This document shows, one piece after another, positions 1 through 52,000 of a stretch of 64,000 bases of DNA. Source of the DNA: Phycisphaerae bacterium (GTDB lineage: Bacteria; Planctomycetota; Phycisphaerae; SM23-33); NCBI GenBank assembly GCA_041687095.1, contig JAWLCQ010000001.1:25664-89663 (forward strand), given 5' to 3'. Each line of letters begins with the position of its first letter. Position 1 is the first letter of the stretch. The notes under the pieces are model-generated. The model was not told the DNA's origin. It saw nothing but the letters and a program-made list of their open reading frames with translations, and did no database searches. A program made the translations under genes and the position numbers.

Positions 1-2364
1 CTCCTCGACCGCGGGGGGCGGGTGAAGATCGCGGATTTCGGTTTGGCCAGGCTGATCGGGGCCGACGGCGGCGCATCCGTTCGTGGCACGGGCGTCTCGT
101 CCGCGCGTCCCACGGACGTCCCGCTCGATGCGGGGGAGGCGAGCGGATCGGCGGCGGCATCTGAAGGCCCCGGGCGCAAGGGGGCGCCCGGCGGCCTGGG
201 GGGCGGGGCGACGATCGGGGAGGAGCGCGTCTGTGGGACGCCCCGCTACATGGCCCCCGAGCAGTTCGATCGCCCCCGCGAGGTGGACCACCGCGCGGAC
301 ATCTACTCGCTGGGGGCGGTGTTTTATGAGATGCTCACCGGCAGCCTCCCGCAGGGAGCGCCCGGGCAGGTCTTCGAGCCCCCGTCGCACCGCGTGCTCA
401 TCGATGTCCGCCTCGACGAGGTTGTCCTCCGCGCCCTGCACCGCGAACCCTCCCTCCGCTACCAGCACGCCAGCGAGGTCCGCACGCAGGTGGAGACCAT
501 CGTCTCGTCGCTCCCCGTGCCCGACGCATCCGGCGGGCCTCGCGTCCCGGCCGTCCACTCCCCGCCAAGCCCCGCCGGTGCACAGGGAACTCCCTCTCCC
601 CGCCTGTCGATTCTTGCGCTCATCGGCGCCCTGTGGGCGCCGCTGGCGTTCGCGGTGTTTGTCGGGTTGTATGTGGTGGTGATACCCAGTTCTCCCGCTG
701 GATCGTTCCGCCCGGCCCTGTGGCAAGTGGTGCTGAGGTTCACCCTCCTCCCGCTGGGGCTCACCGCGCCCTTCGGGACCACGCTCTGCGGGGCGATCGC
801 TCTCGCCCGCATCCGCCACTCCGCCGGACGGCTGTACGGGCTGGGGCTCGCCCTGGCCGACGCGCTGCTGTTCCCGCTGCTGCTCCTCGACGCAGGACTC
901 TTCTACGTGACCCTCGACCTCTTCAGTCGTCCCCCCTTCCGCGCACTGGGCGGGGGGTGGGGAGGCGTCGGTCTGCTCGTGGCGGTCGCCCTCTGCGCGA
1001 TCGTCGACATCCTGATCGTCCGGTGGGCCTGGCGGGCGGTGAAGCGGCCGACGACGATCCAGGACCCCCGCGGGAACTCCCTTCCTTCGCAAGGCCGCTT
1101 GCACGGGACCGACGATGGTGAGGGTAGGCGCCCCGGTACGCACGTGGGCTTCGCATGGAACAACTGGCAGCGGAACTGGTACTGGCCCATCGTGGGCGTC
1201 CGCGACGGGCGGAAGGTCATCCACTGGCCGGGTGTGCTCGCCACCGCGGCCATCCTCGCCGTCCTCATCGCCGCCGGGATGCTCCTGTTCGACCTGATCC
1301 TGCACCGACTCACGGGCGTCTCGCTCCTGGGCTACCGCCTGCTGGCGATCGTCGCCCTGGGCACCGCGGCCATCCTGTTCTTCTCGATTCGTCGTGGGCT
1401 TCGCCTGCCGCCCGAGCGCCTCGCTGCGCTCGACCGCCCCCGGCGGCAATGGGGCAAGTACGTCGTGGGGCTGCTGGTCGCGCTCGCGCTCGCGCTGGTC
1501 GTGCGGACGTTCGTGATCGGGGCGTTTATCGCCAAGACCCCCGCCGTCGCCCCCGAGATCCCCGCGGGCAGCCGCGTATACGTCCTCAAGCTCGACCGTA
1601 CGTTCTCCCCGGGCGACATCATCGTCTACTACAACAACCAGGATCAGCCCCTGCTTGGTCGCGTCACCCGCAACGGACCCGACGCGGGCAAGGTGCACAT
1701 CGAGCGCTACGGCCTGCCGGAGGAGGTCCCGGTGTCCGCTGTCGTGGGGCGCGTGTTCTTCCACACCCGCAGCTCGCGCCCCAGCCAACCCGTCGCCCCG
1801 GCGGCGGTGCTGTACGGGCCCATCCAAGTGGCGACGCTCAAGTCACCTCAGGTGGACCGCTCGGCCGCCTACATCGACCTCGACACCCATCGCATCGTCC
1901 CGCTGCCCGAGGACATCGATCCCAGCGACCAGCCGACCCTGTGGCAGTGGGCGAGGGACAACGGCGTCGACGCCGTCGCCGACACCTCCCAGAGCATCCG
2001 CGGGCTGCTGGGATTCGACCTCACCGTCGCCAAGATCGCGGACGAGGACTGGGACAGGGTGTGGAACGACCCCAAGAGCACGCTCGTCCAGCGGGCCATC
2101 GCCGCGGCGACGTTCAGGGACTCCAAGTTGCCTCCTGGCCCATACGCGCAGTCCGTCATCTCCGCCAACGTGGTCTCGGTGGGGCGCGTGAGTTCGACGT
2201 TCGCCTTCGAAACGCGTGAGGGCGGATGGGGCATCCTCCAGCTCACGCAGATCAAAGACGAGCCCAGCGGATTCATCACCTTCCGCTGCCGAATCGCTCC
2301 CGCACCGCAGGCTTCGACGACGTCCGCAACCGAGCCCGATCCCGCAAGCCGCCCGGGCCCATGA
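1..2364 (+). CDS. Serine/threonine protein kinase, 5'-truncated at the window edge; C-terminal polytopic membrane region with a degenerate S26 signal-peptidase-like domain
   Basis: Frame 1 is open from nt 1 and reads LLDRGGRVKIADFGLAR (DFG motif) ... GTPRYMAPEQ (APE motif), which are Hanks kinase subdomains VII-VIII. ORF track 22..2364 is the in-window portion. Downstream there are several hydrophobic helices and a stretch VRTFVIGAF..PGDIIVY..LLGRVTRNG resembling LepB box motifs, but without the Ser/Lys catalytic dyad. Confidence 0.8.
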   Translation, partial: LLDRGGRVKIADFGLARLIGADGGASVRGTGVSSARPTDVPLDAGEASGSAAASEGPGRKGAPGGLGGGATIGEERVCGTPRYMAPEQFDRPREVDHRADIYSLGAVFYEMLTGSLPQGAPGQVFEPPSHRVLIDVRLDEVVLRALHREPSLRYQHASEVRTQVETIVSSLPVPDASGGPRVPAVHSPPSPAGAQGTPSPRLSILALIGALWAPLAFAVFVGLYVVVIPSSPAGSFRPALWQVVLRFTLLPLGLTAPFGTTLCGAIALARIRHSAGRLYGLGLALADALLFPLLLLDAGLFYVTLDLFSRPPFRALGGGWGGVGLLVAVALCAIVDILIVRWAWRAVKRPTTIQDPRGNSLPSQGRLHGTDDGEGRRPGTHVGFAWNNWQRNWYWPIVGVRDGRKVIHWPGVLATAAILAVLIAAGMLLFDLILHRLTGVSLLGYRLLAIVALGTAAILFFSIRRGLRLPPERLAALDRPRRQWGKYVVGLLVALALALVVRTFVIGAFIAKTPAVAPEIPAGSRVYVLKLDRTFSPGDIIVYYNNQDQPLLGRVTRNGPDAGKVHIERYGLPEEVPVSAVVGRVFFHTRSSRPSQPVAPAAVLYGPIQVATLKSPQVDRSAAYIDLDTHRIVPLPEDIDPSDQPTLWQWARDNGVDAVADTSQSIRGLLGFDLTVAKIADEDWDRVWNDPKSTLVQRAIAAATFRDSKLPPGPYAQSVISANVVSVGRVSSTFAFETREGGWGILQLTQIKDEPSGFITFRCRIAPAPQASTTSATEPDPASRPGP

Positions 2365-5756: not shown

Positions 5757-7489
5757 GGGGAGGGGTCCCGGGAGGGCGGGGGCAACTGGAGCAGCCGCCG
5801 GGCCGCCAAGGCGCTGAACGGGTTGGGCGGGGCGGCGTGGACCAGCCCGAAGTGCTCCCCGGGACTGCGTACCTCCTCCACGCCCTCGACGGTCTGCCGC
5901 TGCAGCGCCAGCAGGCCGAGTTCGAAGTTGGCCTGCACGGCCGCGTCGAGGTCGCTCCGCTGTCGGGCGAGGAGGGCGAGCTGGGTGGCGCGGCGGTGGG
6001 GGTCGGGGTCGGCGAGGGCGTAGGCGACCTTGAGGTTGCCGGCGAGGGGGGTATTCTCGTGACGGGCGGCGAGGTCGTCGAGGCGGCGGAGGTAGGCGGG
6101 GCGGTCGAAGGCGAGGGGGTGGGTCTGGAGGAGTTCGGCGAGGGCGGCGGCGGCGGGGGGGCTGTCGTGTACGTCGTTCTCGCGAACGAGCCACAGCAGC
6201 CGCTCCGCCTGGAACAGGGCCTGCTCGTAGTAGGGGCGGGAGGGGATGGCGTCGTGGTCGTCGAAGACTTGCGGGGGGGCGGTGCGGGAGTGTTGCAGCA
6301 GGGCGCGGAGGGTATCGACGGCCGACAGGAGCAACTGCTCCCCGGTCTCGCAGTCGCCCGCCCGCAGGGCCAGTTCCCCCGCTCGCCGGCCCGCCAGGCC
6401 CGCGTGCGGGCCCCCGGGATAGTCCCGCAGCAGCGCCTCCCAGCGTGGGCGGGACTCGGGGGGGGCGAGGGCGGCGGTGCAGCGGACGGTTCCGGCGGCG
6501 TAGGCGGGTTCGTGGAGGCGGAGGGAGGCGCACTGCGCGGACAGCCAGGTGATCTCGGCGGAGCGGCGGGAGCGGGGGTGGCGGTGGAGGAACTGCTCGC
6601 ACTGGTCGACGAGTTCGCGGCGGCGGCGGTCGAGGTCGTCGCGGGCGCGTTCGCGGAGGGCGCTGCCGCTGAGGCCCTCTGCCCCCGCTCGCGTCCGCCA
6701 CTCCTCCAGCGGCAGGGGGGCGAAGATCTCCTCGTCGGCGTGGATTTGGGCGACGATGCGGCGGTACTCGAGTTCGACCGTCCCCACGTGCCCGTAGAAG
6801 ATTGCCCCGGCGGGGATGGGCAGGACGAGCAGCAGCGGCCAGACCGCCGCGTAGTGCCATCGCAGCCACCGCCCCAGGCGGAGCACCATTGCCGCCACGA
6901 TCACCGCGAGGACCACGGCGAGCACCAGCGGGGCCCGCAGGGCCCATCGCTGGATGGGCAGGACGGTTTCGGCCAGCGACCCGGCGAGGACGGACAGGTA
7001 CAGGTATCCGGCGGCGACCAGGAGCCCGAGCAGGACGGCGAGGAACGGGGCGTCATGGCGGAGCGGCGTGCGGGCGGCGAGGACGCAGGCGAAGATCAGC
7101 GAGAGGCTCAGCAGCGGCCAATGCCCCAGCACGCCCACCGTCACCGCCAGCCCCACCCCCCAAGCCAGGCGGTGCATGACGGCAACGAGGATGGGCGTTC
7201 CGATCATGCTCGCCAGGAGGATGGCGTGGGCGACGATCAGCCAGGGGTAGGCCAGGACGCTCAGGGGGGCGAGGAACCCCTCGTCCACGGGGGTCCCGAG
7301 TTCGCCGGCGTAGGTGGACAGGGCGAAGTCGAACCACTGGCCGGTGGCGAGGTAGCGCTCGAAGACGGCGGCGGCGGCGACGGCCAACCACACCGGCAGC
7401 GGGTAGACCCAGGCGCGCCAGCCCCCGACGGCCTGCTGCAGGCGGGCGGGTCGCATGTTTTCACTGCCGTCTCTGGCCATTCGCTCCAT
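5753..7489 (-). CDS. Hypothetical polytopic membrane protein (about 9 TM helices) with a C-terminal soluble helical domain; translationally coupled to the GT28 gene
   Basis: C-terminal 578 aa of ORF 5753..8506, with an N-terminal signal anchor MRPARLQQAVGGWRAWVYPLPVWLAVAAAAV and many hydrophobic helices. The start is uncertain (in-frame ATGs at 7489, 7480 and 7456). The ORF upstream of about 7550 is antisense to thyA. Confidence 0.65.
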   Translation of the reverse strand: MERMARDGSENMRPARLQQAVGGWRAWVYPLPVWLAVAAAAVFERYLATGQWFDFALSTYAGELGTPVDEGFLAPLSVLAYPWLIVAHAILLASMIGTPILVAVMHRLAWGVGLAVTVGVLGHWPLLSLSLIFACVLAARTPLRHDAPFLAVLLGLLVAAGYLYLSVLAGSLAETVLPIQRWALRAPLVLAVVLAVIVAAMVLRLGRWLRWHYAAVWPLLLVLPIPAGAIFYGHVGTVELEYRRIVAQIHADEEIFAPLPLEEWRTRAGAEGLSGSALRERARDDLDRRRRELVDQCEQFLHRHPRSRRSAEITWLSAQCASLRLHEPAYAAGTVRCTAALAPPESRPRWEALLRDYPGGPHAGLAGRRAGELALRAGDCETGEQLLLSAVDTLRALLQHSRTAPPQVFDDHDAIPSRPYYEQALFQAERLLWLVRENDVHDSPPAAAALAELLQTHPLAFDRPAYLRRLDDLAARHENTPLAGNLKVAYALADPDPHRRATQLALLARQRSDLDAAVQANFELGLLALQRQTVEGVEEVRSPGEHFGLVHAAPPNPFSALAARRLLQLPPPSRDPSP

Positions 7490-13500: not shown

Positions 13501-14518
13501 CGTGGGGGCGAAGTTCGGCCTGGAGGTCCTCGCCCGCCGCGTCGGGGAGAAGGAGCAGGCCGACCTCTGGCAGGTCCACGGCCTCCTTGACGAGTCCATC
13601 AACGTCTCCCGCTCCCTCACCGTCGAACTCAGCCCGCCCATCCTTCACGAGGGGGGGATCGTCGCGGGGCTCGAGTGGCTCGTCCGCTGGGTGGGCGAGA
13701 AGCACGGGCTCACCGTGGACCTCCACACCGACGACCACGCCACCACCGACCGCGAGGACGTCCGGGTCCTGCTCTTCCAGGCGGTCCGCGAACTGCTGTT
13801 CAACGTCGTCAAGCACGCCCGCGTCACCCGCGCCGCCGTCACCCTCGACCTCCAGGACGCCGACCACCTCCGCCTCACCGTCCACGACGAGGGCGTGGGC
13901 TTTGACCCGCAGGCCATGTGGAATCGCGCCCCCGCCCCGACCGAGGGCGGGTTCGGGCTCTTCAGCCTCCGCGAACGCCTCAACCTTCTCGGGGGACGCC
14001 TCACGATCGACAGCGCTGCGGGGGAGGGGGTGACGGTGACGATCGTGGCCCCGCGGAGGCACCTCGGGGCGGCCATCAAGACCCCCACCGCCCTCCGCCA
14101 CCGGGCCGCACCCGAAACGACCCCCGCGGCCGCTCCGCCGGAGGCCCCCGGAGAGGAGAGGCCCATTCGCGTCCTGCTCGCCGACGACCACGCCGTCGTC
14201 CGCCAGGGGATCCGCCTCCTGCTCCGTGACCAGCCCGACATTGAGGTCGTGGGGGAGGCGGCCGACGGCGACCAGGCGGTGGACAGCGCCCACCGCCTCC
14301 GCCCCGACGTCATCCTCATGGACTACAGCATGCCCCGCATGAGCGGGGTCGACGCCACCCGTGCGATCCACCGCGAGCTGCCCGGCATCCGTATCATCGG
14401 CCTGTCGATGTACGAGCAGCTCGACCGCGCCGCCGCCATGATCGACGCCGGGGCCACCGGGTACATCACCAAGAGCGGCCCCTCCGAGGAACTCCTCGCC
14501 GCCGTGCGGGGGGAATGA
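10562..14518 (+). CDS. Hybrid sensor histidine kinase: about 6-7 PAS/PAC domains, HisKA_3 (NarX-type) dimerisation domain, HATPase_c, C-terminal NarL-type receiver
   Basis: Repeated PAS signatures (TGYS.EE, DITARK/DITDRK linkers), H-box LAQILHDHLQQ, G-box GFGLFSLRERL..GG.L.I.S..G.G, receiver IRVLLADDHAVVRQGIRLLL..DVILMDYSMP. The start, MEDERHS (10562), is in frame with ORF 10022..14518, whose first 180 aa are low-complexity. Confidence 0.85.
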   Translation: MEDERHSTGDCTPADGLGGAAGGDGGRDLSAAEFRLIADSSYDWAYWQQANGTFAYLSPSCQRITGYSPEEFMADPELYVRIVHPSDREGVREHFRSHEDCVKQAPLEYRILRRDGEERWIGHACQEIHDAQGRLLGRRGANRDITAAKHMEAELRETQFRFDLALANAPVVLMEQDRDLRCLWMHHSQLGMQEEEVVGRTEEDLFGRDAAADVIRLKRRAIEEGGPARGEVRLQYRGEESWWNLHAEPRRDAQGRVVGVVSTAINVTEAHRAAEAVRASEQRLKTIIDGAGVGIASISREGKWEWMNDSLCEFLGFSREELMGLRWQDVTHPDDVAADEALAGRLRAGEISSYSIDKRYIRKDWQVVWGHLTVSRQTDPQGNPAFYIAVIRDITARKRAEEALREQEHFARRLIDSTLSGMYIYDTRQGQITYSNPQYERITGWSQAELNALAPEPFLDLFHPEDRPRVIEHIRAVREALGEEVWEIEYRFRRPEGTWIWCLSREAPFERDRDGTVRTYIGSFIDITDRKLAEDAVRRSEQRWRSVFAGAPIGMVITDLQGRFEHVNDAYCRLAGYTREELQAGDLSFLELTHPEDREETIRQAQRLIAGEIPTYSIEKRYVRRDGGVTWVRASAVLRQSEHHRAMQIIGLVEDITDRKRAEEALRESETRFRAAFADAPIGMVLVDPAGHYLYVNAAYCRIVGYSEAELLRPGFDFQRITHPDDVARQVAAIRRLLAGEIPSFFLEKRNVRKDGSIVWLRASASLRRNASGEPYQIIGLVEDVTDRVHAESALREQEARLRLATDAAHLGVFVWDVGSDTVTWENDRMYEIFGVSREDPPYNLAALMADIVHPDDRESFDANLRSGMTPGGTLHSIGRIRRKDGEYRWVEVAGRCEFDDDGACRRLVGILADITDRVRAEQQLREARDELEQRVRERTAELQRRADQLARLTSELTLTEQRERRRLAQILHDHLQQMLVGAKFGLEVLARRVGEKEQADLWQVHGLLDESINVSRSLTVELSPPILHEGGIVAGLEWLVRWVGEKHGLTVDLHTDDHATTDREDVRVLLFQAVRELLFNVVKHARVTRAAVTLDLQDADHLRLTVHDEGVGFDPQAMWNRAPAPTEGGFGLFSLRERLNLLGGRLTIDSAAGEGVTVTIVAPRRHLGAAIKTPTALRHRAAPETTPAAAPPEAPGEERPIRVLLADDHAVVRQGIRLLLRDQPDIEVVGEAADGDQAVDSAHRLRPDVILMDYSMPRMSGVDATRAIHRELPGIRIIGLSMYEQLDRAAAMIDAGATGYITKSGPSEELLAAVRGE

Positions 14519-14626
14519 TACGCGTTCCACTCAATTCTCGGGTGGGTGCCGTGGTTTGCGGAGCGCAGCGGAGCAACCACGTCCAATCGACGCTGCCTGC
14601 GAATTATCTGGGATGCGTATAAGCCA
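14517..14626 (+). repeat. Copy 1 of a roughly 105-110-nt conserved intergenic repeat (second copy at 35586-35692, inverted), starting at the kinase stop codon
   Basis: atacgcgttccactcaattctcgggtgggtgccgtggtttgcggagcgcagcggagcaaccacgtcc...ctgcgaattatctgggatgcgtat is about 90 % identical to the reverse complement of 35586-35692. It has internal inverted symmetry (attctcggg / cccgagaat, atacgc / gcgtat). Confidence 0.6.
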
Positions 14627-14767
14627 CGGCGCAAGGCGGTATGCGTGGGTGATGAAGCGGTAGGGCGCGCACATGGCGAAGCGCAGCGGAGCCATGTGCG
14701 CGCGGGACGGATCCCGGTGATCCTCCCGCGGGCGGACGGCTCCGCTGTGCTCCGCCGCCTTCGCACC

Positions 14768-16996
14768 CTACGGCCGGCGACGGAGCGTGTCGCGGAGGCT
14801 GCGGACGTGGGCGCGGGCGGCGCGGAGGTCGTCATCGGTGGCGGGGGCGAGGCCCCAGCGGAGGCGGTAGTACAGGGCCACCAGGTCCTCCAGGGGCCCA
14901 GGGGGGAGGTGGAGGCGCTGGGCGGCGAGGGCGGCGATGTGGCGGGGCGTGTGCTGCGGCCCCGCCCGCACCCCGTGCCGCTCCAACAGTCTCAGCAGGT
15001 CCACCATGAACCGCAGCTCCCGTCGGTTGGGCACCAGGGCCCACGCGTGCCCCCGCCAGCTTCGCGGGCGGAGGGAGCGGCGGCGGAGAATCGTCAACTC
15101 CATCGCCAGGACCGCCAGCCCCAGCCCCGCGGCCGCCGGGATCAGCACCCCGTGCAGTTCCCCATGCAGCAGCAGGGCGAGCACGGCCTCCCACACCGTG
15201 CCCCCGACCCTCGCCAGCCAGTGGTACGCCCGCAGAACCCCCGAACGGAGCATCCCCCACAGCTTCCGCTGCGTGTCCCAATCGTACTGGAGGACCTGCT
15301 CGGACCACATCTGCTGCAGCCCGGACCAGTAGTCCGTCAGGGGCGACCACCAGGATCGCTGGATGTCGGCGTAGTCGCCGGGGGTGGCGTCGAAGACGAC
15401 CCAGTCGGTGGCGGGCGTGTAGACTTCGGTCCAGGCGTGGGCGTCGCGTTCGCGGATGACGTAGTCGCCCTCGTTGGCTCCGGCGGGGTCGATACGGAAC
15501 CCCGTGGCGAGGCGGGCCCGCACGCCCACGATGTTGCACATCACCGTCATCGCCGACGCGAAGTACTCGCAGTGCCCCCGCTTCATGTGGAACAGGAAGT
15601 CCTCCACGCCGTCCCGCTTCGGATCCGAGCCCTTCAGGTCCAGCGTGTAGGCGTACTCCTCCCGCAGCCGCTCCGCGATCCGCCCCGCGATCCGCAGGTC
15701 CAGTTCGTTGCGCCGGCGGGGCTCCGTCTGCCGCCGCGCCAGCAGATCCGCGCACCACTGCCGCGCCAGGACCTCCACGCGGCGGGTGGTGTGCACGTAG
15801 GGGCGGACCGCCAGCCCCGCCTCCTGCCGCTCCGCCAGGTAGGCAAGCTGCTCCTCCGACAGCGGGCGGGCCCACGAGTGGACCGTGTAGCGCGCGTACG
15901 GCCGGGGCGAGGGCTCGCGCGGCAGCGAGAGCGTGCCATCCCCCCCCACCCGCCCCTCGCCCGTCTCCCCGAAGACGCGAATCGCCGGGGCGATCCCGAA
16001 CATCGCCGGGGCGAGCGACTGCACCTGCGTGACCTCCTGGACAAGGACCTCCCCCGCCGGGGCGTCGGGACGGGGTGGGGGAGGGGAGGACAGGCCGGGC
16101 AACTGCCCGGGCTGAAAGCCGAACCAGCGGGAGTCGGCGTACTGCTCGAGGGTGTTCCCGCGCAGATACCAAGACCCCGGATCGTCCAGGTTCCCGTCCA
16201 CGTGCACGCGCATAACCGTACGGTCGGACAGGTACACCTCCCGCGTCTGCCCCAATTGGACGCTGCCGCTATACCCCGACGTCGCCGCTGACCGAGACCC
16301 CTGCAGCAGCGCCGCCGACCCCGCGGCCAGACGCGGCACGACGAGGAACATCACCCCCCCCAGCACGGACACCACGGCCAGGATCACCCCCAGCCGCCCC
16401 AGCAGCGCCCGCGTGGGCCAGTGGCGCATCATGTTCCACGCCGCCCGCCGGGGCTCGGGGGCGGCGCCCTCCACGCTGAGGCGGGCGGCGACGGTGTCAT
16501 CGAGGCCCCGTTTCAGCGTCAGCCGCATCGCCGTGTGCGACAGCAGCATCAGCTCGCACAGCAGCAGCAGGGCGTACCACAGGTCCTCGCAGAGCATCGC
16601 CCCGGTGACCACCAGGAGCATGCTGATCGCCAGGAGCTGGACGTAGTCGCGGTTGCGGCGGCGGTCGAAGAGCTTGCAGATCTCGATCAGGATGAGGTAG
16701 TGCCCCAGGATGATGATGAGCTGCTGGCGGCCGGCGAAAAGCTCCAGGAACATCACCGCGGTGGCGAGGATGAGCCCGGTGTTCAGGAGCGGGCGGCGGA
16801 CGTAGACCTCGCAGCCGACCTGGGCGGCGAGGAGGCTGACGCCCACGGCGGCGCTGCCGGCGAGGAGGTAGAACATGGCCCCCTCGGTGATGCTGAACCC
16901 CGCCATTGCCAGCCACACCGCCAGCAGCAGCGGGCGCTCCAGGCGCTTGCGCTCGGTGATGCGGATCTCGGTGTCGGTGTAGGGCCTCAGGGGCAT
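14768..16996 (-). CDS. Transglutaminase-like protein, TgpA-like (N-terminal DUF3488 membrane domain plus transglutaminase core)
   Basis: Six N-terminal TM helices, then a transglutaminase Cys-His-Asp core (GHCEYFASAM...DAHAWTEVY). It is the last gene of the MoxR-DUF58-TGase operon, and its start overlaps the DUF58 stop by 10 nt. Confidence 0.85.
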   Translation of the reverse strand: MPLRPYTDTEIRITERKRLERPLLLAVWLAMAGFSITEGAMFYLLAGSAAVGVSLLAAQVGCEVYVRRPLLNTGLILATAVMFLELFAGRQQLIIILGHYLILIEICKLFDRRRNRDYVQLLAISMLLVVTGAMLCEDLWYALLLLCELMLLSHTAMRLTLKRGLDDTVAARLSVEGAAPEPRRAAWNMMRHWPTRALLGRLGVILAVVSVLGGVMFLVVPRLAAGSAALLQGSRSAATSGYSGSVQLGQTREVYLSDRTVMRVHVDGNLDDPGSWYLRGNTLEQYADSRWFGFQPGQLPGLSSPPPPRPDAPAGEVLVQEVTQVQSLAPAMFGIAPAIRVFGETGEGRVGGDGTLSLPREPSPRPYARYTVHSWARPLSEEQLAYLAERQEAGLAVRPYVHTTRRVEVLARQWCADLLARRQTEPRRRNELDLRIAGRIAERLREEYAYTLDLKGSDPKRDGVEDFLFHMKRGHCEYFASAMTVMCNIVGVRARLATGFRIDPAGANEGDYVIRERDAHAWTEVYTPATDWVVFDATPGDYADIQRSWWSPLTDYWSGLQQMWSEQVLQYDWDTQRKLWGMLRSGVLRAYHWLARVGGTVWEAVLALLLHGELHGVLIPAAAGLGLAVLAMELTILRRRSLRPRSWRGHAWALVPNRRELRFMVDLLRLLERHGVRAGPQHTPRHIAALAAQRLHLPPGPLEDLVALYYRLRWGLAPATDDDLRAARAHVRSLRDTLRRRP

Positions 16997-20630: not shown

Positions 20631-20680
20631 TGCATCTGTTCCCCGATAACCTTCCGATCAGCGATCAGCGATCAACGAAT

Positions 20681-20788
20681 CAACCAGTCAACCAGTCAAC
20701 CAGTCAACCAGTTAACCAGTCAACCAGTTAACCAGTTAACCAGTCAACCAGTTAACCAGTCAACCAGTCAACCAGTTAACCAGTCAAC
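20681..20788. repeat. Octamer tandem array (YAACCAGT) x about 13 immediately upstream of pdxA
   Basis: caaccagtcaaccagtcaaccagtcaaccagttaaccagtcaaccagttaaccagttaaccagtcaaccagttaaccagtcaaccagtcaaccagttaaccagtcaaccaatcaacc: 8-nt unit with C/T alternation at position 1, 108 nt. Confidence 0.8.
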
Positions 20789-20811
20789 CAATCAACCAAC
20801 CACCGATCCTC

Positions 20812-21843
20812 ATGCCAGACGACCGTCCCATCATCGGAGTGACCATGGGCGATCCCCTCGGGATCGGGGCCGAGATCCTCGTCAAGGCCCTGGCCGATCC
20901 CGAGCTTCGCCGGCGGGGGCGGTTCGTTATCTTCGGGGCCAGCGAGCAGCTCGCCTACACCGCCGACCAGCTCGAACTCGACTTCCCCTTCTTCCGCGAC
21001 CACCACGAGAACGTCCGCCGCTACCTGCACGACGTGGTGGTCCTGGACTACGACGAGATCGCCATCCCCCCGGCCATGGAGCGCGGGCCCTCGCGGGTGG
21101 GGGGGGAGGCCAGCTTCCGCTTCGTCGACGATGCCATCGCCGCCGCCCTCGCCGGGGACCTCGACGCCCTCGTCACCGCCCCCATCTCCAAGACCTCCTG
21201 GGCGCTGGCGGGGGTCAAGAAGTACCCCGGGCACACCGAACTCCTCGCCGACCGGACCAAGACCAAACGCGTCGCCATGATGTTCGCCTCCTCCCGCCTG
21301 AAGGTCGCCCTGGCGACGATCCACGAGCCCATCGCCCGCATCCCCAACCTTTTCAACATCGGGTGCGTGCACACCCCCATCGACCTCGCCGACCAGGCCC
21401 TGCGCCAGTGGTGGGGCATCGCCCGCCCGCACATCGCGGTCTGCGCCCTGAACCCCCACGCGGGGGAGGAGGGGCGGTTCGGGGACGAGGAGGAGCGGGT
21501 GATCGGGCCGGCGATCCTCATGGCCCGCGAGTCGGGGATCGACGTCTCCGGCCCCTACCCCGCCGACACGCTCTTCCTGCGGGCGTCGCGCGGGGAGTTC
21601 GACTGCGTCATCGCCATGTACCACGACCAGGGGCTCATCCCCATGAAGCTCCTCGCCTGGGACGAGGTGGTCAACGTCACGCTCGGCCTGCCCATCCTCC
21701 GCACCTCCCCCGGGCACGGGACCGCCTTCGACATCGCCGGCAAAAACCGCGCCGACGCCTCCTCCTTCACCGCCGCCGTCCGCCTGGCGCTGGACCTCGC
21801 GATCCGCCGCCGCGGTCCGCAGCCGCCCCCGACCGCCGCGTAG
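20812..21843 (+). CDS. pdxA: 4-hydroxythreonine-4-phosphate dehydrogenase
   Basis: PdxA signatures across the full length: IGVTMGDPLGIGAEI, ALVTAPISK, GHTE, HIAVCALNPHAGEEG, MYHDQGLIP, SPGHGTAFDIAGK. Confidence 0.9.
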   Translation: MPDDRPIIGVTMGDPLGIGAEILVKALADPELRRRGRFVIFGASEQLAYTADQLELDFPFFRDHHENVRRYLHDVVVLDYDEIAIPPAMERGPSRVGGEASFRFVDDAIAAALAGDLDALVTAPISKTSWALAGVKKYPGHTELLADRTKTKRVAMMFASSRLKVALATIHEPIARIPNLFNIGCVHTPIDLADQALRQWWGIARPHIAVCALNPHAGEEGRFGDEEERVIGPAILMARESGIDVSGPYPADTLFLRASRGEFDCVIAMYHDQGLIPMKLLAWDEVVNVTLGLPILRTSPGHGTAFDIAGKNRADASSFTAAVRLALDLAIRRRGPQPPPTAA

Positions 21844-21867: not shown

Positions 21868-22097
21868 CTCACGCAAAGGCGCAAAGGCGCAAAGGGAAGA
21901 AGAGGCAGCGGGAAGAAGAAGCCTGCACCGTCCCGCGCACGGCGCGCTTCATGGACGGGATGGACTCGATGGACAGTATGGACGCCATGGACCCGCGGGG
22001 TTCCGCTGTGCGGTCCTCTGCGTAATCTTGAAATCTGTGCAATCCCTCTCTCTCCGAGCTGTTTCTTCCCCTTCGCGCCTTTGCGCCTTTGCGTGAG
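21868..22097. repeat. About 30-bp near-perfect inverted repeat (arms 21868-21899 and 22065-22097, each containing (GCGCAAAG)x3) flanking about 165 bp that include a 23-codon Met-Asp-repeat micro-ORF
   Basis: Arm 1 is ctcacgcaaaggcgcaaaggcgcaaagggaag; arm 2 is cttccccttcgcgcctttgcgcctttgcgtgag (the reverse complement, with one indel). Between them ATGGACGGGATGGACTCGATGGACAGTATGGACGCCATGGAC is an in-frame MDGMDSMDSMDAMD... ending in TAA at 22022. Confidence 0.6.
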
Positions 22098-30715: not shown

Positions 30716-30951
30716 CGGCAGTGGTCCTTGGCCTCGTGGGTCCGGCGCCGCGGCCCAGCCGCGATGTTCTGCTCTGCAGTCATGAACGTCTCCATCCTTC
30801 TCCTCCGCCCGCGGGATGCCCCGGGCGGGCTTCCGCCCCGCCCCGAACTCTCGTCACCCCGCCGGGCGCCGGTCGGACAGTCCCCGAAGCTTACGACACG
30901 CGCACCGCTGGGGTCCAGTGCCCGGACACAATGCCCAGGGCCATCGCATCT

Positions 30952-31096
30952 CCGTGGCACGGGCGTCTCGCCCCTGCGGAGAGGCGAGAACGGCCTCGCG
31001 GCGAGCCCAAGCGCCCCCAATCCACGGGGGTTTCTCCGCCGAAGGCCACGGGCTTTCCTGCCCGTGGGACCCATGGGCGAGACGCCCGTGCCACGG
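30952..31096. repeat. Perfect 22-bp inverted repeat (CCGTGGCACGGGCGTCTCGCCC / GGGCGAGACGCCCGTGCCACGG) separated by about 100 bp, within a 476-bp intergenic region
   Basis: Arm 1 at 30952-30973, arm 2 at 31075-31096. The loop contains a further short hairpin, ccacgggctttcctgcccgtgg. No credible ORF. Confidence 0.7.
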
Positions 31097-31191
31097 AAAT
31101 TCTGTTCACCGCCGTGCTCGCACGAGCGCGGCGGAACAGGGGTCGCAGAACCCCCGGTGCCCTGCGGGTGCGCCCGCGAGAGCGCGGCGGC

Positions 31192-34078: not shown

Positions 34079-34448
34079 GGTCTGGGTCCGCTTGGCTCTC
34101 GACGCGTTGTCACACTCATCGTACGCAGCTCCTGTCGGCGGGCCGGTGGCGTTTCGGCGCCCGCAGGACGATCGGAAGGCTACCACAGGGGGATCGAGTA
34201 TGCTACGGCCGGAAACGAGAAGCCTCCAGGGCCCTCGCAACCTCGCCGTCGCGGGTGCCACGGCTGCGCTGTTCACAGCCGTGCTTGTGCGGGCTCGCGG
34301 CGGACCACGGGTTCTGCAACCCCGTGGGACCCGGCGGGATCTTTCCCCGGCCGGTCCAATGCGGTACGCTGATCCGTGCCGGGCGCTCCCGCTTGGTGCA
34401 GCGTCACCGGCCTGGCCGTGGAGCGCCGGTCCCCTGGGGGCCGGTGCG

Positions 34449-35501: not shown

Positions 35502-35585
35502 CCACCTGGTCGGGGTACATGCAGGTGTCGAGGCGTCCCGCCTCCAGGGCGTCGGCATCGGGTTTCCCCGCCGCCCGAAGGGCAC

Positions 35586-35692
35586 TCATACGCATCCCAG
35601 TTAATTCTCGGGCAGCGTCGGTCTGACGTGGTTGCTCCGCTGCGCTCCGCAAACCACGGCACCCACCCGAGAATCAAGTGGAACGCGTATCA
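35586..35692 (-). repeat. Copy 2 (inverted) of the roughly 105-nt intergenic repeat seen at 14517-14626
   Basis: Its reverse complement, atacgcgttccacttgattctcgggtgggtgccgtggtttgcggagcgcagcggagcaaccacgtcagaccgacgctgcccgagaattaactgggatgcgtatg, aligns with copy 1 at about 90 % identity. It lies between the convergent esterase and nucleoside hydrolase genes. Confidence 0.6.
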
Positions 35693-35749
35693 TGCCCTGC
35701 CGGATCAGGGCCTGGTGATCGTGCGTGTTCATTTGCGGGCTCCTGGGGT

Positions 35750-49000: not shown

Positions 49001-52000
49001 GCCTCACCGACACCGATCCCGCCACCGTCGAGCGCTACTACCTCTCGTCCATCGCCGACAGCGACGTGACGGGGACGCTGGACGCGCAGGTGGACCTGGT
49101 CCTGCCCTTCGAGGGCGACTGGGTGGACCCCGCCGACGCGGACCTGTGGCTGCTGGCGGGCGTGGACGCGCAGGGCGCCCTGGCGGACGTCGACGGTGAC
49201 TTCCCGACGTTCGTCATGCCCGACACGCTGAACCTCGAGGCGATGATCGACGGGCTGCGGACGCTGCTGACCCGCCTCCGCGACGCCTTGGGCACGCAGG
49301 CGTTCAACCTCAGCCTGCCCATCGTGGGCACGCAGCTCAACACCGCCTACCTCGACTCCCTGCTCGCCCGCCTGGGCGGTTGGTCGCCCTACGACGCCCT
49401 CCACGCCGCCACCTGGGCGACGAACAACCTCGCGGCGATGTTCGGGGCCTCCGCCCAGATCCAGGCGGCCGACACCGGGGACATGGACGCCGCCGACGCG
49501 GCGGCCGAGTGGATCATCCAGCTCTCCGACACCTACGCCTTCGGGGCCGCCGACGTGGACTTCGACCTGGGCCTGCCCGGGCTGGGGCTGGACATCGACG
49601 CCCACGCGGACGTGAGCCTCGACTGGGTCTTCAACCTGGGCCTGGGGTTCAGCAAGAACAAGGGCTTCTACCTCATCACCGACGACGGGGGGTTCGCGAC
49701 GGGCCTGGCGTTCGCCGGAGAGTCGCCCACGCTGGGCGTGGCGCTCACCGCGGGCGTCACCGATCTCGACGCGAGCGGGCGACTGGGCTTTCTGAACCTG
49801 ACGGCCGAGGCGATCCCCGGGGCGCCCATCGGGGCGAGCGGGCAGTTTGCCATCGACCTTTCGGGCCTCAACGGGCGGGTGTACTACAACCGCCTGGCGT
49901 CGTCGATCTACGACGTGGACGTCGCCTACGCCCTGTCCGCCGACGTCAATGCGCGGCTGGAGATCGCCTACAGCGCCAACTTCCCGTCGATCCTGTCGGA
50001 CCTGGTCATGCACTGGTCGTTCGACAACGACGACGCCACGGTTGACGCGCCGCTGTCGCTCGCCCTGGAGGACATCCGCATCGACCTGGGCGGGTATCTC
50101 GGTGGGGTCGTTTCGCCCGTGGTGGAACGCATCAACGAGGTCTTCGAGCCCCTGCAGCCGATCCTGAACGTTCTCAACACGACCGTGCCGGTGGTCTCGT
50201 ACGTCCTGGACCGCGACGTGACGATCCTCGATCTCGCCATCATGGCCGGGGGCTCGGGGGGCTACGACGTCGAGTTCCTCTCGGACGTCGCGGCCGTCGT
50301 CGACCTCGCCGGGCGGCTGCCCGCGCTCCAGTCGCACTACATCCACCTGGGGACGTACACGTTCGGTTCGGGCCTCGTGTCCGCCGACTCGCCGCTGGAC
50401 CTGGCGGTCAACGGCGGGGCGTTCGAGGGCAACGAGAACGCCCTGGTCGACGCCCGCAACGCCGGCGGCGGGTTCGGGGCGTTCCTGGACGACCTGCAGG
50501 AGATCGGGATCGAGATCCCGCTGCTGGCGGAGCCCCTCCGCGTCGTCGAGTTGTTCCTCGGCCGCGATGTTGAACTGGTGCAGTACACCACCCCGCGCCT
50601 GGCGCTGGACATCGACTTCCGCCAGCAGACCCCGATCATCTTCCCGTGGCTGGTGTTCACGATCGGGATGGACGCGAGCATCTCCGCGCAGGCGGCCTTC
50701 GGGTACGACACGCGCGGGTTGCGGCAGTACGCCGACGGGGGCGACACGGGCGACCTGCTCAACGGGTTCTACATGCGCACGGGCCCGCAGTACCCGCTGA
50801 TCCGCTTTGCGGGGCACGCCGCGCTGGGCCTGGGCGTGAGCCTCGGGGGCGTCGTCGCCGCCGGGGTCGAGGGCGGGATCGGGCTCGATGGGCACATCTA
50901 CGCCACCGACGCCGACGGCGACGGGCGCCTGCACTGGGACGAGCTGCCCGCGTTTGAACCGGGCGAGATCCTGTCGCTGTTCGATTGCGACGGGAGCATC
51001 TACTTCGACGTCCGCCTGTGGTGGGAAACGCCGATCGACGACGGAACCTACACGCTGGCGAAGGTGACGCTGATGGACTTCGGGGCCGGCACCGGCGGGG
51101 CCATCGAGCACGAGGCGGACATCGAGTTCGACCAGCGCGCCATGGGCAATTCCGTGGACCTCGGCCAGGCCCCGACCGCTCGCGTGTACCACCCCGAGCT
51201 GTGGGATTCGCGCGGAGTGCAGTGGTACCGCTTCTCCACCGACCGCGACAACGAGGTCTTCGATTTCTCGGCCGTCCGCGCCAGCGCGGGCAACGACATG
51301 GCCCTGGCCGTCTTCAACGCCGACGGGGAGCGCCTCGCCATGTCGGCCGGCTGGGGCAGTTCGCAGGCGACGCTCAACGACGTCCGCCTGGGCGAGCGGG
51401 GCGTGTACTACCTCGCCGTCATGTGCAACGACCCCGAGTGGCCGCTGGAGAGCGTCTCCGTCACGCCCAACACCGACGCGCTGACGGGCACGGTGGTGTA
51501 CTACGTCAACGACCTGGACGACTCGCCCGACCCGTACCTGATGGGCAACCCCTACACGTCCGCCCCGGGCGACGACGCCAACAGCGGTTTGGACCCCGCG
51601 CACCCCAAGGCGAGCATCTCCGCGGTGGTCTCATCGTTGACAGGCAACGAGGGGCGCGTCTACATCCTCGTCGACAGCGGGCACTACCGCGTGGACGACG
51701 AGGCCGAGCGCATCCGCCTGGCGCAGGGCAACGTGTGGTTCGTCGGGACCTGGCACACGAACGTGACGTTCGCCGCCGGTCCGCTGTTCGACCTGAACAA
51801 CGCCGGGGACGTCCACCTCTACGGGTTCAATCTCTACGGCGAGGGGACCGCGACGGCGGTCCGTACGCGCGGGGACGGCCTGTGGGACGCAGCCGCGGGG
51901 CATTATGCACCCGTCGATTCGCTCGTCATCGAGGGCAACCGCTTCGACGGCGTGGGCGTGGGCATCGACGCCGGGTGCTTCCAGAGCGTGGTGATCTCCG

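What the first reader, a model, noticed from the sequence alone, without database searches (positions are those of the whole stretch)
14517..14626. Conserved roughly 105-nt element present twice, both times in convergent-gene spacers, with internal palindromic symmetry
Sequence 14517-14626, starting exactly at the histidine-kinase stop codon, and the reverse complement of 35586-35692 are about 90 % identical over about 105 nt. Substitutions cluster in two short patches (tccaatcgacgctgcctgcgaattatc versus tcagaccgacgctgcccgagaattaac). Both copies sit between convergently transcribed genes: kinase/TGase and esterase/nucleoside hydrolase. The element contains inverted repeats (attctcggg...cccgagaat; atacgcg...cgcgtat) and a GC-rich core ccgtggtttgcggagcgcagcggagcaaccacg that can fold. 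That profile fits a REP/MITE-like repetitive extragenic element, a bidirectional terminator module or a small structured RNA. The shadow ORFs that translate it as PWFAERSGATTS.RRC.RI.WDAY in both places simply reflect the DNA identity.
Basis: seen in the sequence. Interest (0 to 1): 0.7.

Follow-up and report, generated by a model that had tools for sequence, protein, structure and literature searches.

The report
REP hairpin nested in longer palindrome
The twice-occurring 109-base element is built around a 38-base "REP" hairpin, a known kind of small repeated DNA that a dedicated transposase (RAYT) copies around bacterial genomes; it is an ordinary kind of element in a little-studied group, Planctomycetota, and its tip sequence turns up in many other phyla.

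Summary
Window 14515-14623 (+) and 35585-35693 (-) are 109-nt copies, about 91% identical, with sharp ends. Each fills a spacer between convergent genes.

The core of each copy is GGGTGCCGTGGTTT-GCGGAGCGCAGCGGAGC-AACCACG (14544-14581 +; 35627-35664 -). It belongs to a REP family. The same unit flanks REP-associated tyrosine transposase (RAYT) genes on both sides, in inverted orientation, in six independent Planctomycetota/Phycisphaerae contigs. One of those units is identical to the window core at 38 of 38 bases.

In the window the REP sits inside outer palindromic arms that I found nowhere else. REPs nested in longer palindromes have been described before. A second, GTAG-tagged REP doublet (14660-14771) fills the rest of the first spacer.

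I found no RAYT gene in the window, no Rfam match and no intrinsic-terminator pattern. The element lacks the end boxes of an integron attC site and has no target-site duplication.

Unexpectedly, the tip TGCGGAGCGCAGCGGAGCA, three overlapping GC-GNA-GC units, caps unrelated hairpin elements in many phyla. These include REPs of a distant RAYT, integron attC sites and Flavo-1 elements. In the REP and attC classes, where a reference strand can be assigned, the tip lies on the strand that folds as single-stranded DNA.

Verdict: a new member of a known kind. Interest is moderate.

The parts
14515..14623 (+). Copy A of the 109-nt composite palindromic element: outer arms ATACGCGTTCCA/TGGGATGCGTAT, second-tier arms ATTCTCGGG/CCTGCGAAT, and the REP core inside. 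The kinase stop codon TGA (14516-14518) lies within its first bases.
14544..14581 (+). REP core of copy A: GGGTGCC tag, foot stem CGTGGTT/AACCACG, and the tip.
   Evidence: Covariance model R1 scores it 63.9 bits, E 2e-12. It is identical to the unit next to the RAYT gene in L115.
14558..14574 (+). Tip of copy A: GCGGAGCGCAGCGGAGC, which reads GC-GGA-GC-GCA-GC-GGA-GC (three overlapping GC-GNA-GC units).
   Evidence: cross-phylum occurrences
35585..35693 (-). Copy B of the 109-nt composite element. It begins 56 nt after the nucleoside hydrolase stop codon, and its second-tier stem is perfect.
35627..35664 (-). REP core of copy B. The tip is at 35634-35650.
14660..14771 (.). Neighbouring GTAG-tagged REP doublet with the tags facing outward. 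The left unit is GTAGG-GCGCGCACATGG-CGAAGCGCAGCGGAGC-CATGTGCGCGC on the + strand, with tip at 14676-14692. The right unit is on the - strand and starts GTAGGGTGCGAAGG, with tip at 14739-14755. The TgpA stop codon TAG (14770-14768, - strand) lies inside the right GTAG tag.
   Evidence: (-82 to -85 kcal/mol, z -6.5 and -8.5)

Best explanation
The element is a repetitive extragenic palindrome (REP) of a RAYT-associated family found in Planctomycetota/Phycisphaerae. Here it is embedded in an additional, genome-specific outer palindrome, so that about 103 nt fold into one long hairpin.

Shown:
- The 38-nt core has a conserved 5' tag and foot (GGGTGCC-GTGG...CCACG). This is the part that stays constant wherever the family flanks a RAYT gene.
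- The tip is variable, but on the tag strand it is usually a GNA triloop closed by C-G, or a threefold GC-GNA-GC array.

Inferred, by analogy with E. coli TnpA-REP and with IS200/IS605:
- A RAYT encoded elsewhere in the genome binds the tag and foot when the tag strand is single-stranded and folded, then cuts and rejoins it. This moved the whole 109-nt composite to a second intergenic site. That would explain two copies with sharp borders and unrelated flanks.
- The GNA tip acts as a very stable DNA mini-hairpin. It nucleates folding of the right strand and resists SSB and nucleases.

Both copies sit in spacers between convergent genes, where insertions are harmless. Any effect on the 3' ends of the neighbouring mRNAs would be secondary. 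Such an effect is plausible because the stop codons of the kinase and of TgpA lie inside REP-element ends.
For: - **Exact unit next to a RAYT gene.** The core unit occurs in 11 metagenome contigs with unrelated flanks. In L115 it occurs as inverted pairs on both sides of an ORF that scores as REP-associated tyrosine transposase: NCBIfam NF047646 at 92.7 bits against a cut-off of 80, and Pfam Y1_Tnp at 24.8 against 23.
- **Same arrangement in relatives.** RAYT homologues at 51-76% identity, labelled Planctomycetota or Phycisphaerae by their sources, were checked in L120, L122, L124, L125 and L126. Each is flanked on both sides by GGGTGCCGTGG...CCACG units in inverted orientation.
- **Model match.** The covariance model built from 25 units scores both window cores at 63.9 bits, E 2e-12.
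- **Host lineage.** The window's MoxR protein has its best named relatives, at 72-74% identity, in Phycisphaerae/Planctomycetota.
- **Tip on the tag strand.** By my own tally of the 22 distinct units not selected through the tip (listed), about 17 carry a GNA or GNNA tip on the tag strand. Both members of inverted pairs do so. The script assigned only 10 of the 22 to a C-G-closed GNA triloop; I reclassified the threefold arrays by hand because it paired them differently.
- **Literature.** RAYT binds the folded single strand through the 5' tag and the hairpin foot (PMC3479197). REPs nested inside longer palindromes, and variable REP loops, are described in PMC3733652. GCGNAGC DNA mini-hairpins are far more stable than the RNA form, resist nucleases and bind SSB poorly (PMC13037366).
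- **Spacer context.** A second, GTAG-tagged REP doublet with the same type of tip lies next to copy A.
Against: - No RAYT gene lies in the 64-kb window, and the rest of the genome could not be fetched. RAYT presence and genome-wide copy number are therefore unknown.
- Only two units occur in the window. In related genomes, the 9-20 kb around each RAYT gene hold units only right beside that gene, so the family may be low-copy.
- The tag is GGGTGCC, not the canonical GTAG.
- The window copies are single REPs, not the inverted doublets thought to be the mobile form.
- The outer arms match nothing else in JGI metagenomes or in any fetched locus. How the composite moves is therefore inferred from two copies only.
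- Both copies lie in sense orientation after an upstream gene, and they fold much better as RNA on that strand. An RNA-level role is not excluded.
Confidence: 0.72

Rival explanations
1. The primary role is at the RNA level. The long hairpin acts as a 3'-UTR structure that ends or stabilises the transcripts of the upstream gene, either as a U-tract-less terminator or as an exonuclease block. Its REP ancestry is incidental.
For: Both copies lie in sense orientation directly after a gene. Copy A starts at the stop codon. As RNA, the sense strand folds at -44.3 and -55.9 kcal/mol, against -31.7 and -40.3 for the complement, because of G-U pairs. E. coli REPs are known to affect mRNA turnover (introduction of PMC3479197).
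Against: There is no T-run and no terminator-like site, and no Rfam match. Two copies give no covariation. In related loci the units occur in both orientations, as inverted pairs, each with the GNA tip on its own tag strand. One transcript cannot explain that. GNA triloops are a DNA stability motif and are much weaker in RNA (PMC13037366).
Confidence: 0.15
2. The element is a MITE. The outer arms ATACGCGTTCCA/TGGGATGCGTAT are terminal inverted repeats of a DDE-type insertion sequence that moves the element, and the REP inside is a passenger.
For: The ends form 12-nt imperfect terminal inverted repeats. The element is about 105 nt long, has sharp borders and sits at two unrelated sites.
Against: There is no target-site duplication: the flanks are AATG/AAGC for copy A and CATG/GAGT for copy B. 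Instead, 3 nt upstream (ATG) are shared, as expected for a 5' target or cleavage motif of HUH-type elements. No other sequence with both arms exists in JGI metagenomes or in the fetched loci. No insertion sequence with these ends lies in the window.
Confidence: 0.07
3. The element is a neutral remnant of a single local duplication or gene-conversion event. It has no mobility mechanism and no function.
For: Only two copies are known, 21 kb apart, in the one contig available.
Against: Identity stops exactly at the ends of the hairpin in both places, and the copies are in inverted orientation within unrelated spacers. The core is a conserved, RAYT-linked unit found across many genomes.
Confidence: 0.05
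4. The element is an integron attC-like recombination site.
For: It shares a 23-nt tip (TTGCGGAGCGCAGCGGAGCAAC) with a widespread class of attC-type sites.
Against: It has no RYYYAAC...GTTRRRY end boxes. It shows no similarity to the attC class outside the tip (local alignment p 0.3-0.5). The window shows no repeated attC-type sites that would mark a cassette array; an integrase gene was not specifically looked for.
Confidence: 0.01

Closest known systems
REP / REPIN-RAYT systems (E. coli REP-BIME with TnpA-REP; Pseudomonas REPINs)
   Same: A 38-nt imperfect palindrome in extragenic DNA, with a conserved 5' tag and foot. The same unit flanks RAYT genes in inverted orientation and forms inverted doublets in related genomes.
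   Different: The tag is GGGTGCC rather than GTAG. The window copies are single REPs inside a second, unrelated palindrome rather than doublets. Copy number appears low. The host is Planctomycetota/Phycisphaerae.
REPs embedded in longer palindromes (A. variabilis GTAG-15, T. roseum GTAG-23, H. neapolitanus CGTC-1; Di Nocera et al. 2013, PMC3733652)
   Same: A REP lies in the middle of a longer conserved palindrome, and empty outer palindromes are not found.
   Different: Those cases are mostly REP dimers and are high-copy. Here a single REP has an asymmetric 14-nt 3' internal loop, and only two copies are known.
Integron attC sites
   Same: Both are hairpins that work as folded single-stranded DNA, with a purine-rich GNA tip on the strand that folds. 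A cross-phylum attC class carries the identical tip on its bottom strand (PMC5027507).
   Different: The window element has no R'/R'' boxes, no typical extrahelical bases and no repeated attC-type sites around it, and it shows no similarity outside the tip.
Extraordinarily stable DNA mini-hairpins d(GCGNAGC) (Hirao and co-workers; PMC13037366)
   Same: The tip is three overlapping GC-GNA-GC units. Across variants the G and A are kept while N varies among A, G, C and T.
   Different: The known cases are single units in phage origins and promoters. A threefold nested array capping mobile hairpins has not, to my knowledge, been described.

Membership tests
REP of a RAYT (REPtron) system | Short (about 20-40 nt) imperfect palindrome able to form a stem-loop | tested here: met
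   The 38-nt core has a 7-bp foot plus a structured tip.
REP of a RAYT (REPtron) system | Extragenic location | tested here: met
   Both copies lie in spacers between Pfam-supported genes.
REP of a RAYT (REPtron) system | The same sequence family flanks a RAYT gene, in inverted orientation | tested here: met
   Met in six related contigs (L115, L120, L122, L124, L125, L126). It could not be tested in the source genome: the window has no RAYT and the rest of the genome was not retrievable.
REP of a RAYT (REPtron) system | Conserved tetranucleotide tag (GTAG or CGTC) at the 5' foot | tested here: inconclusive
   The family has an almost invariant GGGTGCC head instead. GTGG-type variants are on record (PMC3733652). 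The neighbouring doublet at 14660-14771 does carry GTAG at both outer ends.
REP of a RAYT (REPtron) system | Many copies per genome | tested here: inconclusive
   There are 2 units in 64 kb. Around the RAYT genes of relatives, units occur only right beside the gene. One Planctomycetaceae MAG carries units on four contigs. The whole source genome was not available.
REPIN / BIME (inverted REP doublet) | Two REPs in inverted orientation separated by a short spacer | tested here: not met
   The window composite holds one REP, and its 3' half has no inverted unit. Relatives do form doublets (L006, L075, L113, L115, L124), and so does the neighbouring element at 14660-14771.
Integron attC site | RYYYAAC ... 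GTTRRRY end boxes with extrahelical bases, within a cassette array | tested here: not met
   No end boxes are present, and there is no similarity outside the tip.
MITE | Terminal inverted repeats plus target-site duplication, and a parent insertion sequence with the same ends | tested here: not met
   Terminal inverted repeats are present, but there is no duplication of flanking bases. No other sequence carries these ends.
Intrinsic terminator | GC-rich stem followed by a T/U run | tested here: not met
   No such sites in either spacer.
Any Rfam RNA family | Match at the family's gathering score | tested here: not met
   No match in the window. In 14400-14800 (copy A and its neighbour), the only stretch scanned at E up to 10, the only hits are weak spurious microRNA-model hits to the neighbouring palindrome.

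The most novel reading that the evidence does not exclude
The threefold tip GC-GNA-GC-GNA-GC-GNA-GC may be a general, previously unremarked cap of hairpin elements that must fold from single-stranded DNA. It may arise again and again, or be exchanged, across bacterial and archaeal phyla.

A rough estimate of my own, not a computed control, puts the chance expectation near ten.
- At least 58 of 111 occurrences have five or more uninterrupted base pairs directly flanking the tip, against 7% of control positions.
- It caps Planctomycetota REPs and the REPs of a distant Armatimonadota RAYT that have a different foot.
- It caps GTAG-tagged REP-like hairpins in Actinobacteria.
- It caps a 70-nt attC-type site conserved across many phyla, including MAGs labelled Archaea.
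- It caps a hit to Rfam Flavo-1.
- In the REP and attC classes it lies on the strand that the recombinase uses: the tag strand of REPs and the bottom strand of attC.

If this is right, the tip is a strand-selection and SSB-exclusion device shared by HUH-transposase and integron systems. Flavo-1 'RNAs' may then be DNA elements of the same kind.
Probability: 0.35. Interest if true: 0.6.

Novelty: new member of a known kind. Interest (0 to 1): 0.42.

Why it matters
- **Annotation.** The result assigns a puzzling repeat to a defined mobile-DNA system (REP/RAYT) in Phycisphaerae-type Planctomycetota, a group where such elements are barely described. It also provides a covariance model and a foot consensus that could annotate them.
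- **Gene ends.** Both convergent genes of the first spacer end inside REP-element borders, which is relevant for calling gene ends and for 3'-end regulation.
- **A testable idea.** A GNA-based DNA mini-hairpin array may be a common solution for making the correct strand of a mobile hairpin fold. It appears in RAYT substrates and in integron attC sites across distant phyla. For attC, the single GAA loop and the apical mini-hairpin are already discussed in the literature. The threefold array and its presence in REPs are not, as far as my searches showed.

Tried and rejected
- **Rfam.** The window, 18 loci at gathering score and the copy A spacer at E up to 10 gave nothing relevant, except Flavo-1 in L031 and L053.
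- **Literature search for the tip sequence.** No paper holds it.
- **Retrieving the source contig.** Exact-protein look-ups failed. The identical proteins are on record only as an unnamed 123-kb NCBI contig.
- **Orthologous spacers.** The closest hydrolase orthologue (69% identity) sits on contigs that stop 61 nt after the gene. The MoxR-DUF58-TgpA operon of a relative has a different downstream gene and no REP. No presence/absence test was therefore possible.
- **Metagenome scan for both outer arms.** Zero hits.
- **Homology between the window element and the attC class outside the tip.** Not significant.
- **Viral contigs.** Only 4 hits to the tip, not followed up.
- **DNA nearest-neighbour folding of the 17-mer tip.** Uninformative, probably because the parameter set has no term for the special stability of GNA mini-hairpins.
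- **Automatic loop classifier.** It mis-paired the threefold tips, so I tallied them by hand.
- **Strict attC finder.** It missed most sites because R' is often GTTAGCC, but it did show further attC-like sites in L039, L065, L070, L089 and L097.
Full report
**1. The observation**

The two regions are real copies. The repeat finder reports one inverted pair, 14511-14623 and 35585-35697, 113 nt at 91%. The pairwise alignment shows uninterrupted similarity from ATGATACGCG to GCGTAT.AG and unrelated sequence outside it. A profile built from the two copies finds them at E about 5e-42 and finds nothing else in the window. I place the limits at 14515-14623 (+) and 35585-35693 (-).

The window is about 70% G+C. 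Real genes were picked by third-position G+C and by Pfam. Copy A lies between a PAS-rich hybrid histidine kinase (ends 14518) and a TgpA transglutaminase on the other strand (ends 14768). Copy B lies between a nucleoside hydrolase (-, ends 35750) and an alpha/beta hydrolase (+, ends 35501). Both copies are in sense orientation behind an upstream gene.

Each copy folds into a single long hairpin. As RNA the sense strand folds at -44.3 and -55.9 kcal/mol, against -31.7 and -40.3 for the complement. With DNA parameters the asymmetry is smaller.

**2. What the core is**

The 19-mer at the tip, TGCGGAGCGCAGCGGAGCA, was used to scan one genome per species.

Among those hits, several Planctomycetota MAGs carried the tip inside the same unit as the window: GGGTGCCGTGG(TT/GC)T-tip-AACCACG. 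A metagenome scan with the exact 34-mer of the window gave 11 contigs. Their flanks are unrelated to the window's outer arms, which fixes the conserved unit at about 38 nt. Units occur singly, in tandem and as inverted pairs.

The 2.1-kb contig L115 holds six units. Two inverted pairs bracket an ORF that is a REP-associated tyrosine transposase: NCBIfam NF047646 at 92.7 bits against a cut-off of 80, and Pfam Y1_Tnp above its cut-off. One bracketing unit is identical to the window core at 38 of 38 bases.

The protein has about 2,000 relatives. The named ones are from Phycisphaerae or Planctomycetota, and one is already labelled REP-associated tyrosine transposase. I fetched four further loci at 51-71% identity, and found a fifth (L120) among the metagenome hits. 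In every one the gene is flanked on both sides by GGGTGCCGTGG...CCACG units in inverted orientation, in genomes of 52-69% G+C.

A covariance model built from 25 distinct units (foot 90.6% paired, few compensatory changes because the foot hardly varies) scores both window cores at 63.9 bits, E 2e-12. It finds no other convincing unit in the window.

The window's MoxR ATPase has its best named relatives (72-74% identity) in Phycisphaerae/Planctomycetota MAGs. Host and element family therefore agree.

**3. The composite**

Around the REP core the window copies carry two further tiers of pairing: ATTCTCGGG/CCCGAGAAT and ATACGCGTTCCA/TGGGATGCGTAT. They also carry a 14-nt 3' internal loop.

These arms occur nowhere else. 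A scan of JGI metagenomes for both arms gave zero hits. A profile search of all fetched loci matched only the central part of the element, roughly the REP core with a few adjacent bases, never the outer arms.

REPs sitting inside longer palindromes, with no empty palindromes elsewhere, have been described for Anabaena, Thermomicrobium and Halothiobacillus (PMC3733652). The architecture therefore has precedent.

There is no target-site duplication. The three bases ATG are shared 5' of the hairpin in both copies. This resembles the conserved 5' target or cleavage motif of HUH-type elements, but with two copies it is only a hint.

The rest of the first spacer is a second hairpin element, 14660-14771. 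It begins GTAGGG and ends CCCTAC, which makes it two GTAG-tagged REP-like units facing each other. Each carries a GC-GNA-type tip (GCGAAGCGCAGCGGAGC, and GCGGAGCACAGCGGAGC on the other strand). The TgpA stop codon TAG lies inside the right-hand GTAG. The kinase stop codon lies inside the first bases of copy A.

**4. How it most likely works**

Shown:
- The core belongs to a REP family linked to RAYT genes.
- The tag and foot are constant while the tip varies.
- The tip is polar. By my own tally of the 22 distinct units not selected through the tip, about 17 carry, on the tag strand, one of the following: a C-G-closed GNA triloop (GTCCC-GAA-GGGAC, GCGGC-GCA-GCCGC, GGGCC-GTA-GGCCC), a single GCGGAGC, a GNNA loop, or the threefold array with N varying among A, G, C and T. 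The script assigned only 10 of the 22 to a C-G-closed GNA triloop, because it paired the threefold arrays differently; those I classified by hand.
- Both members of inverted pairs obey this, each on its own strand.

From the literature:
- E. coli RAYT binds the folded single strand through the 5' tag and the lower stem (PMC3479197).
- d(GCGNAGC) mini-hairpins are extraordinarily stable, far more so than the RNA form. They resist nucleases and bind SSB poorly (PMC13037366).

Inferred:
- A RAYT acting in trans recognises the tag-strand hairpin of the window element when that strand is exposed.
- The GNA tip nucleates and protects the fold.
- The whole composite was copied to a second permissive site.

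Not shown: the source genome's RAYT, the genome-wide copy number and any cleavage site.

**5. Rivals**

- **RNA-level terminator or stabiliser.** This remains possible as a secondary effect, given the orientation of both copies, the better RNA fold and the stop codons at the element borders. It lacks a T-run and any Rfam match. It also does not explain the per-unit strand polarity of the tips.
- **DDE-type MITE.** Disfavoured by the missing duplication and the absence of any partner with the same ends.
- **attC site.** Excluded by the missing end boxes and by non-significant similarity outside the tip.
- **One-off duplication.** Unlikely given the sharp borders, the inverted orientation and the conserved, RAYT-linked core.

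**6. The tip across phyla (side finding)**

Of 111 occurrences of the 19-mer in the fetched loci, 58 have five or more uninterrupted base pairs directly flanking it, against 7% at control positions. Many of the remainder are stems with a single bulge. The contexts are distinct families.

- **attC-type sites.** A 70-nt site is conserved from CTAAC to GTTAG, with extrahelical T and C on the 3' arm. It is found in 26 of the 104 genome loci, from Chloroflexota, Verrucomicrobiota, Desulfobacterota, Planctomycetota and others; a truncated copy in a Bathyarchaeia-labelled MAG (L037) did not pass the full-length filter. A few loci hold further attC-like sites. Cassette ORFs end at the site mainly on the opposite strand (24 loci against 13), which places the tip on the bottom, recombinogenic strand. 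This fits published work: most mobile-integron attC sites carry GAA on the bottom strand (PMC5027507), and an apical mini-hairpin helps to displace SSB (PMC11641012).
- **REPs of a distant RAYT.** In an Armatimonadota MAG (L064) a RAYT (NF047646, 85.7 bits) is flanked by GTAG-tagged REPs with a different foot. One has the exact tip and the other has the middle N changed, GCA to GTA.
- **GTAG-tagged hairpins in Actinobacteria.** In Enemella and Actinospica the stems differ between copies by compensatory changes, while the tag and the tip stay constant.
- **Flavo-1.** One hit to Rfam Flavo-1 has the tip at its apex.
- **Other contexts.** Some hits, such as those in Oscillospiraceae contigs, are not obvious hairpins and were not resolved.

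I could not find the threefold motif in the literature. Its meaning (convergence, slippage of the GCGNA pentamer, or exchange between elements) is open.

**7. Verdict**

The element is a REP-family hairpin of a RAYT system in a Phycisphaerae-like planctomycete, nested in a private outer palindrome. That makes it a new member of a known kind, of moderate interest. The widely shared GNA-array tip is the part most worth following up.

Noticed in passing
L003, L008, L012, L027, L038, L039, L046, L057, L061, L065, L085, L094, L097, L100 and others (26 loci): A roughly 70-nt integron attC-type site, GCCTAACGGTCGGGTTCAGCCGCGT-TGCGGAGCGCAGCGGAGCA-ACGTCGGCTGCAACCCGTTGTTAGCC, is almost identical in MAGs labelled as many different phyla; a truncated copy lies in a Bathyarchaeia-labelled MAG (L037). 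The GNA tip lies on the bottom strand. A few of these loci hold further attC-like sites with other tips.
   Followed up: partly
L031 645-730 (+); also L043, L053, L098, L017: A hit to Rfam Flavo-1 (RF01705, 43.4 bits) carries the same GC-GNA array at its apex. Similar GGGATTG...GAAAGCCCGAC contexts occur in other Bacteroidota and in a Treponema MAG. Flavo-1 may be a REP-like DNA repeat rather than a small RNA.
   Followed up: no
L064 6486-7146: An Armatimonadota RAYT gene (6540-7040) is flanked by inverted GTAG-tagged REPs whose tips differ only in the middle N: GCGGAGCGCAGCGGAGC versus GCGGAGCGTAGCGGAGC.
   Followed up: yes
L002, L025, L049, L082, L086 (Enemella evansiae and relatives): The hairpins have the form CTCATCGAGTAG-stem-tip-stem'-CGTGTCGAGATGAGC. 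The 7-8-bp stem differs between copies by compensatory changes, while the GTAG tag, the outer arms and the tip stay constant.
   Followed up: no
L010, L045, L050, L056, L101 (Oscillospiraceae / Firmicutes MAGs): Here the same 19-mer sits in a conserved context, GCTTCCCCTGGGGGAAGCTGGC-tip-GACTGATGAGGGC.GGGGAGCA, that is not an obvious hairpin around the tip. Its nature is unknown.
   Followed up: no
window 82-115, 30948-30976, 31062-31100: Another short repeat family, (C)CGTGGCACGGGCGTCTCGCCC, is present three times. Two copies are inverted about 95 nt apart in the spacer upstream of 31192.
   Followed up: no
window 20650-20822: An 8-nt tandem repeat (CAACCAGT / TAACCAGT, about 20 units) runs into the start of the ORF 20812-21843.
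   Followed up: no
window 21868-21896 and 22069-22097: A 29-nt inverted repeat, CTCACGCAAAGGCGCAAAGGCGCAAAGGG (97% complementary), brackets 172 nt of non-coding-looking sequence.
   Followed up: no
window about 50000-64000: Very long ORFs carry roughly 2-kb internal repeats and many GNxxV/IxxN-type short repeats, suggesting giant beta-helix-like surface proteins. This is seen only through the repeat families.
   Followed up: no
L105 10940-11000 and L106: Two independent assemblies of the closest nucleoside hydrolase orthologue both stop 61 nt after the gene. That is about where copy B begins in the window. An assembly break at a repeat is possible but unproven.
   Followed up: partly
window 34252-34284 (+): A weak REP-model hit (14.8 bits, E 0.14), CGGGTGCCACGGCT...AGCCGTGC, has the family tag and a covarying foot but lies inside the alpha/beta hydrolase gene. 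It is probably chance.
   Followed up: no
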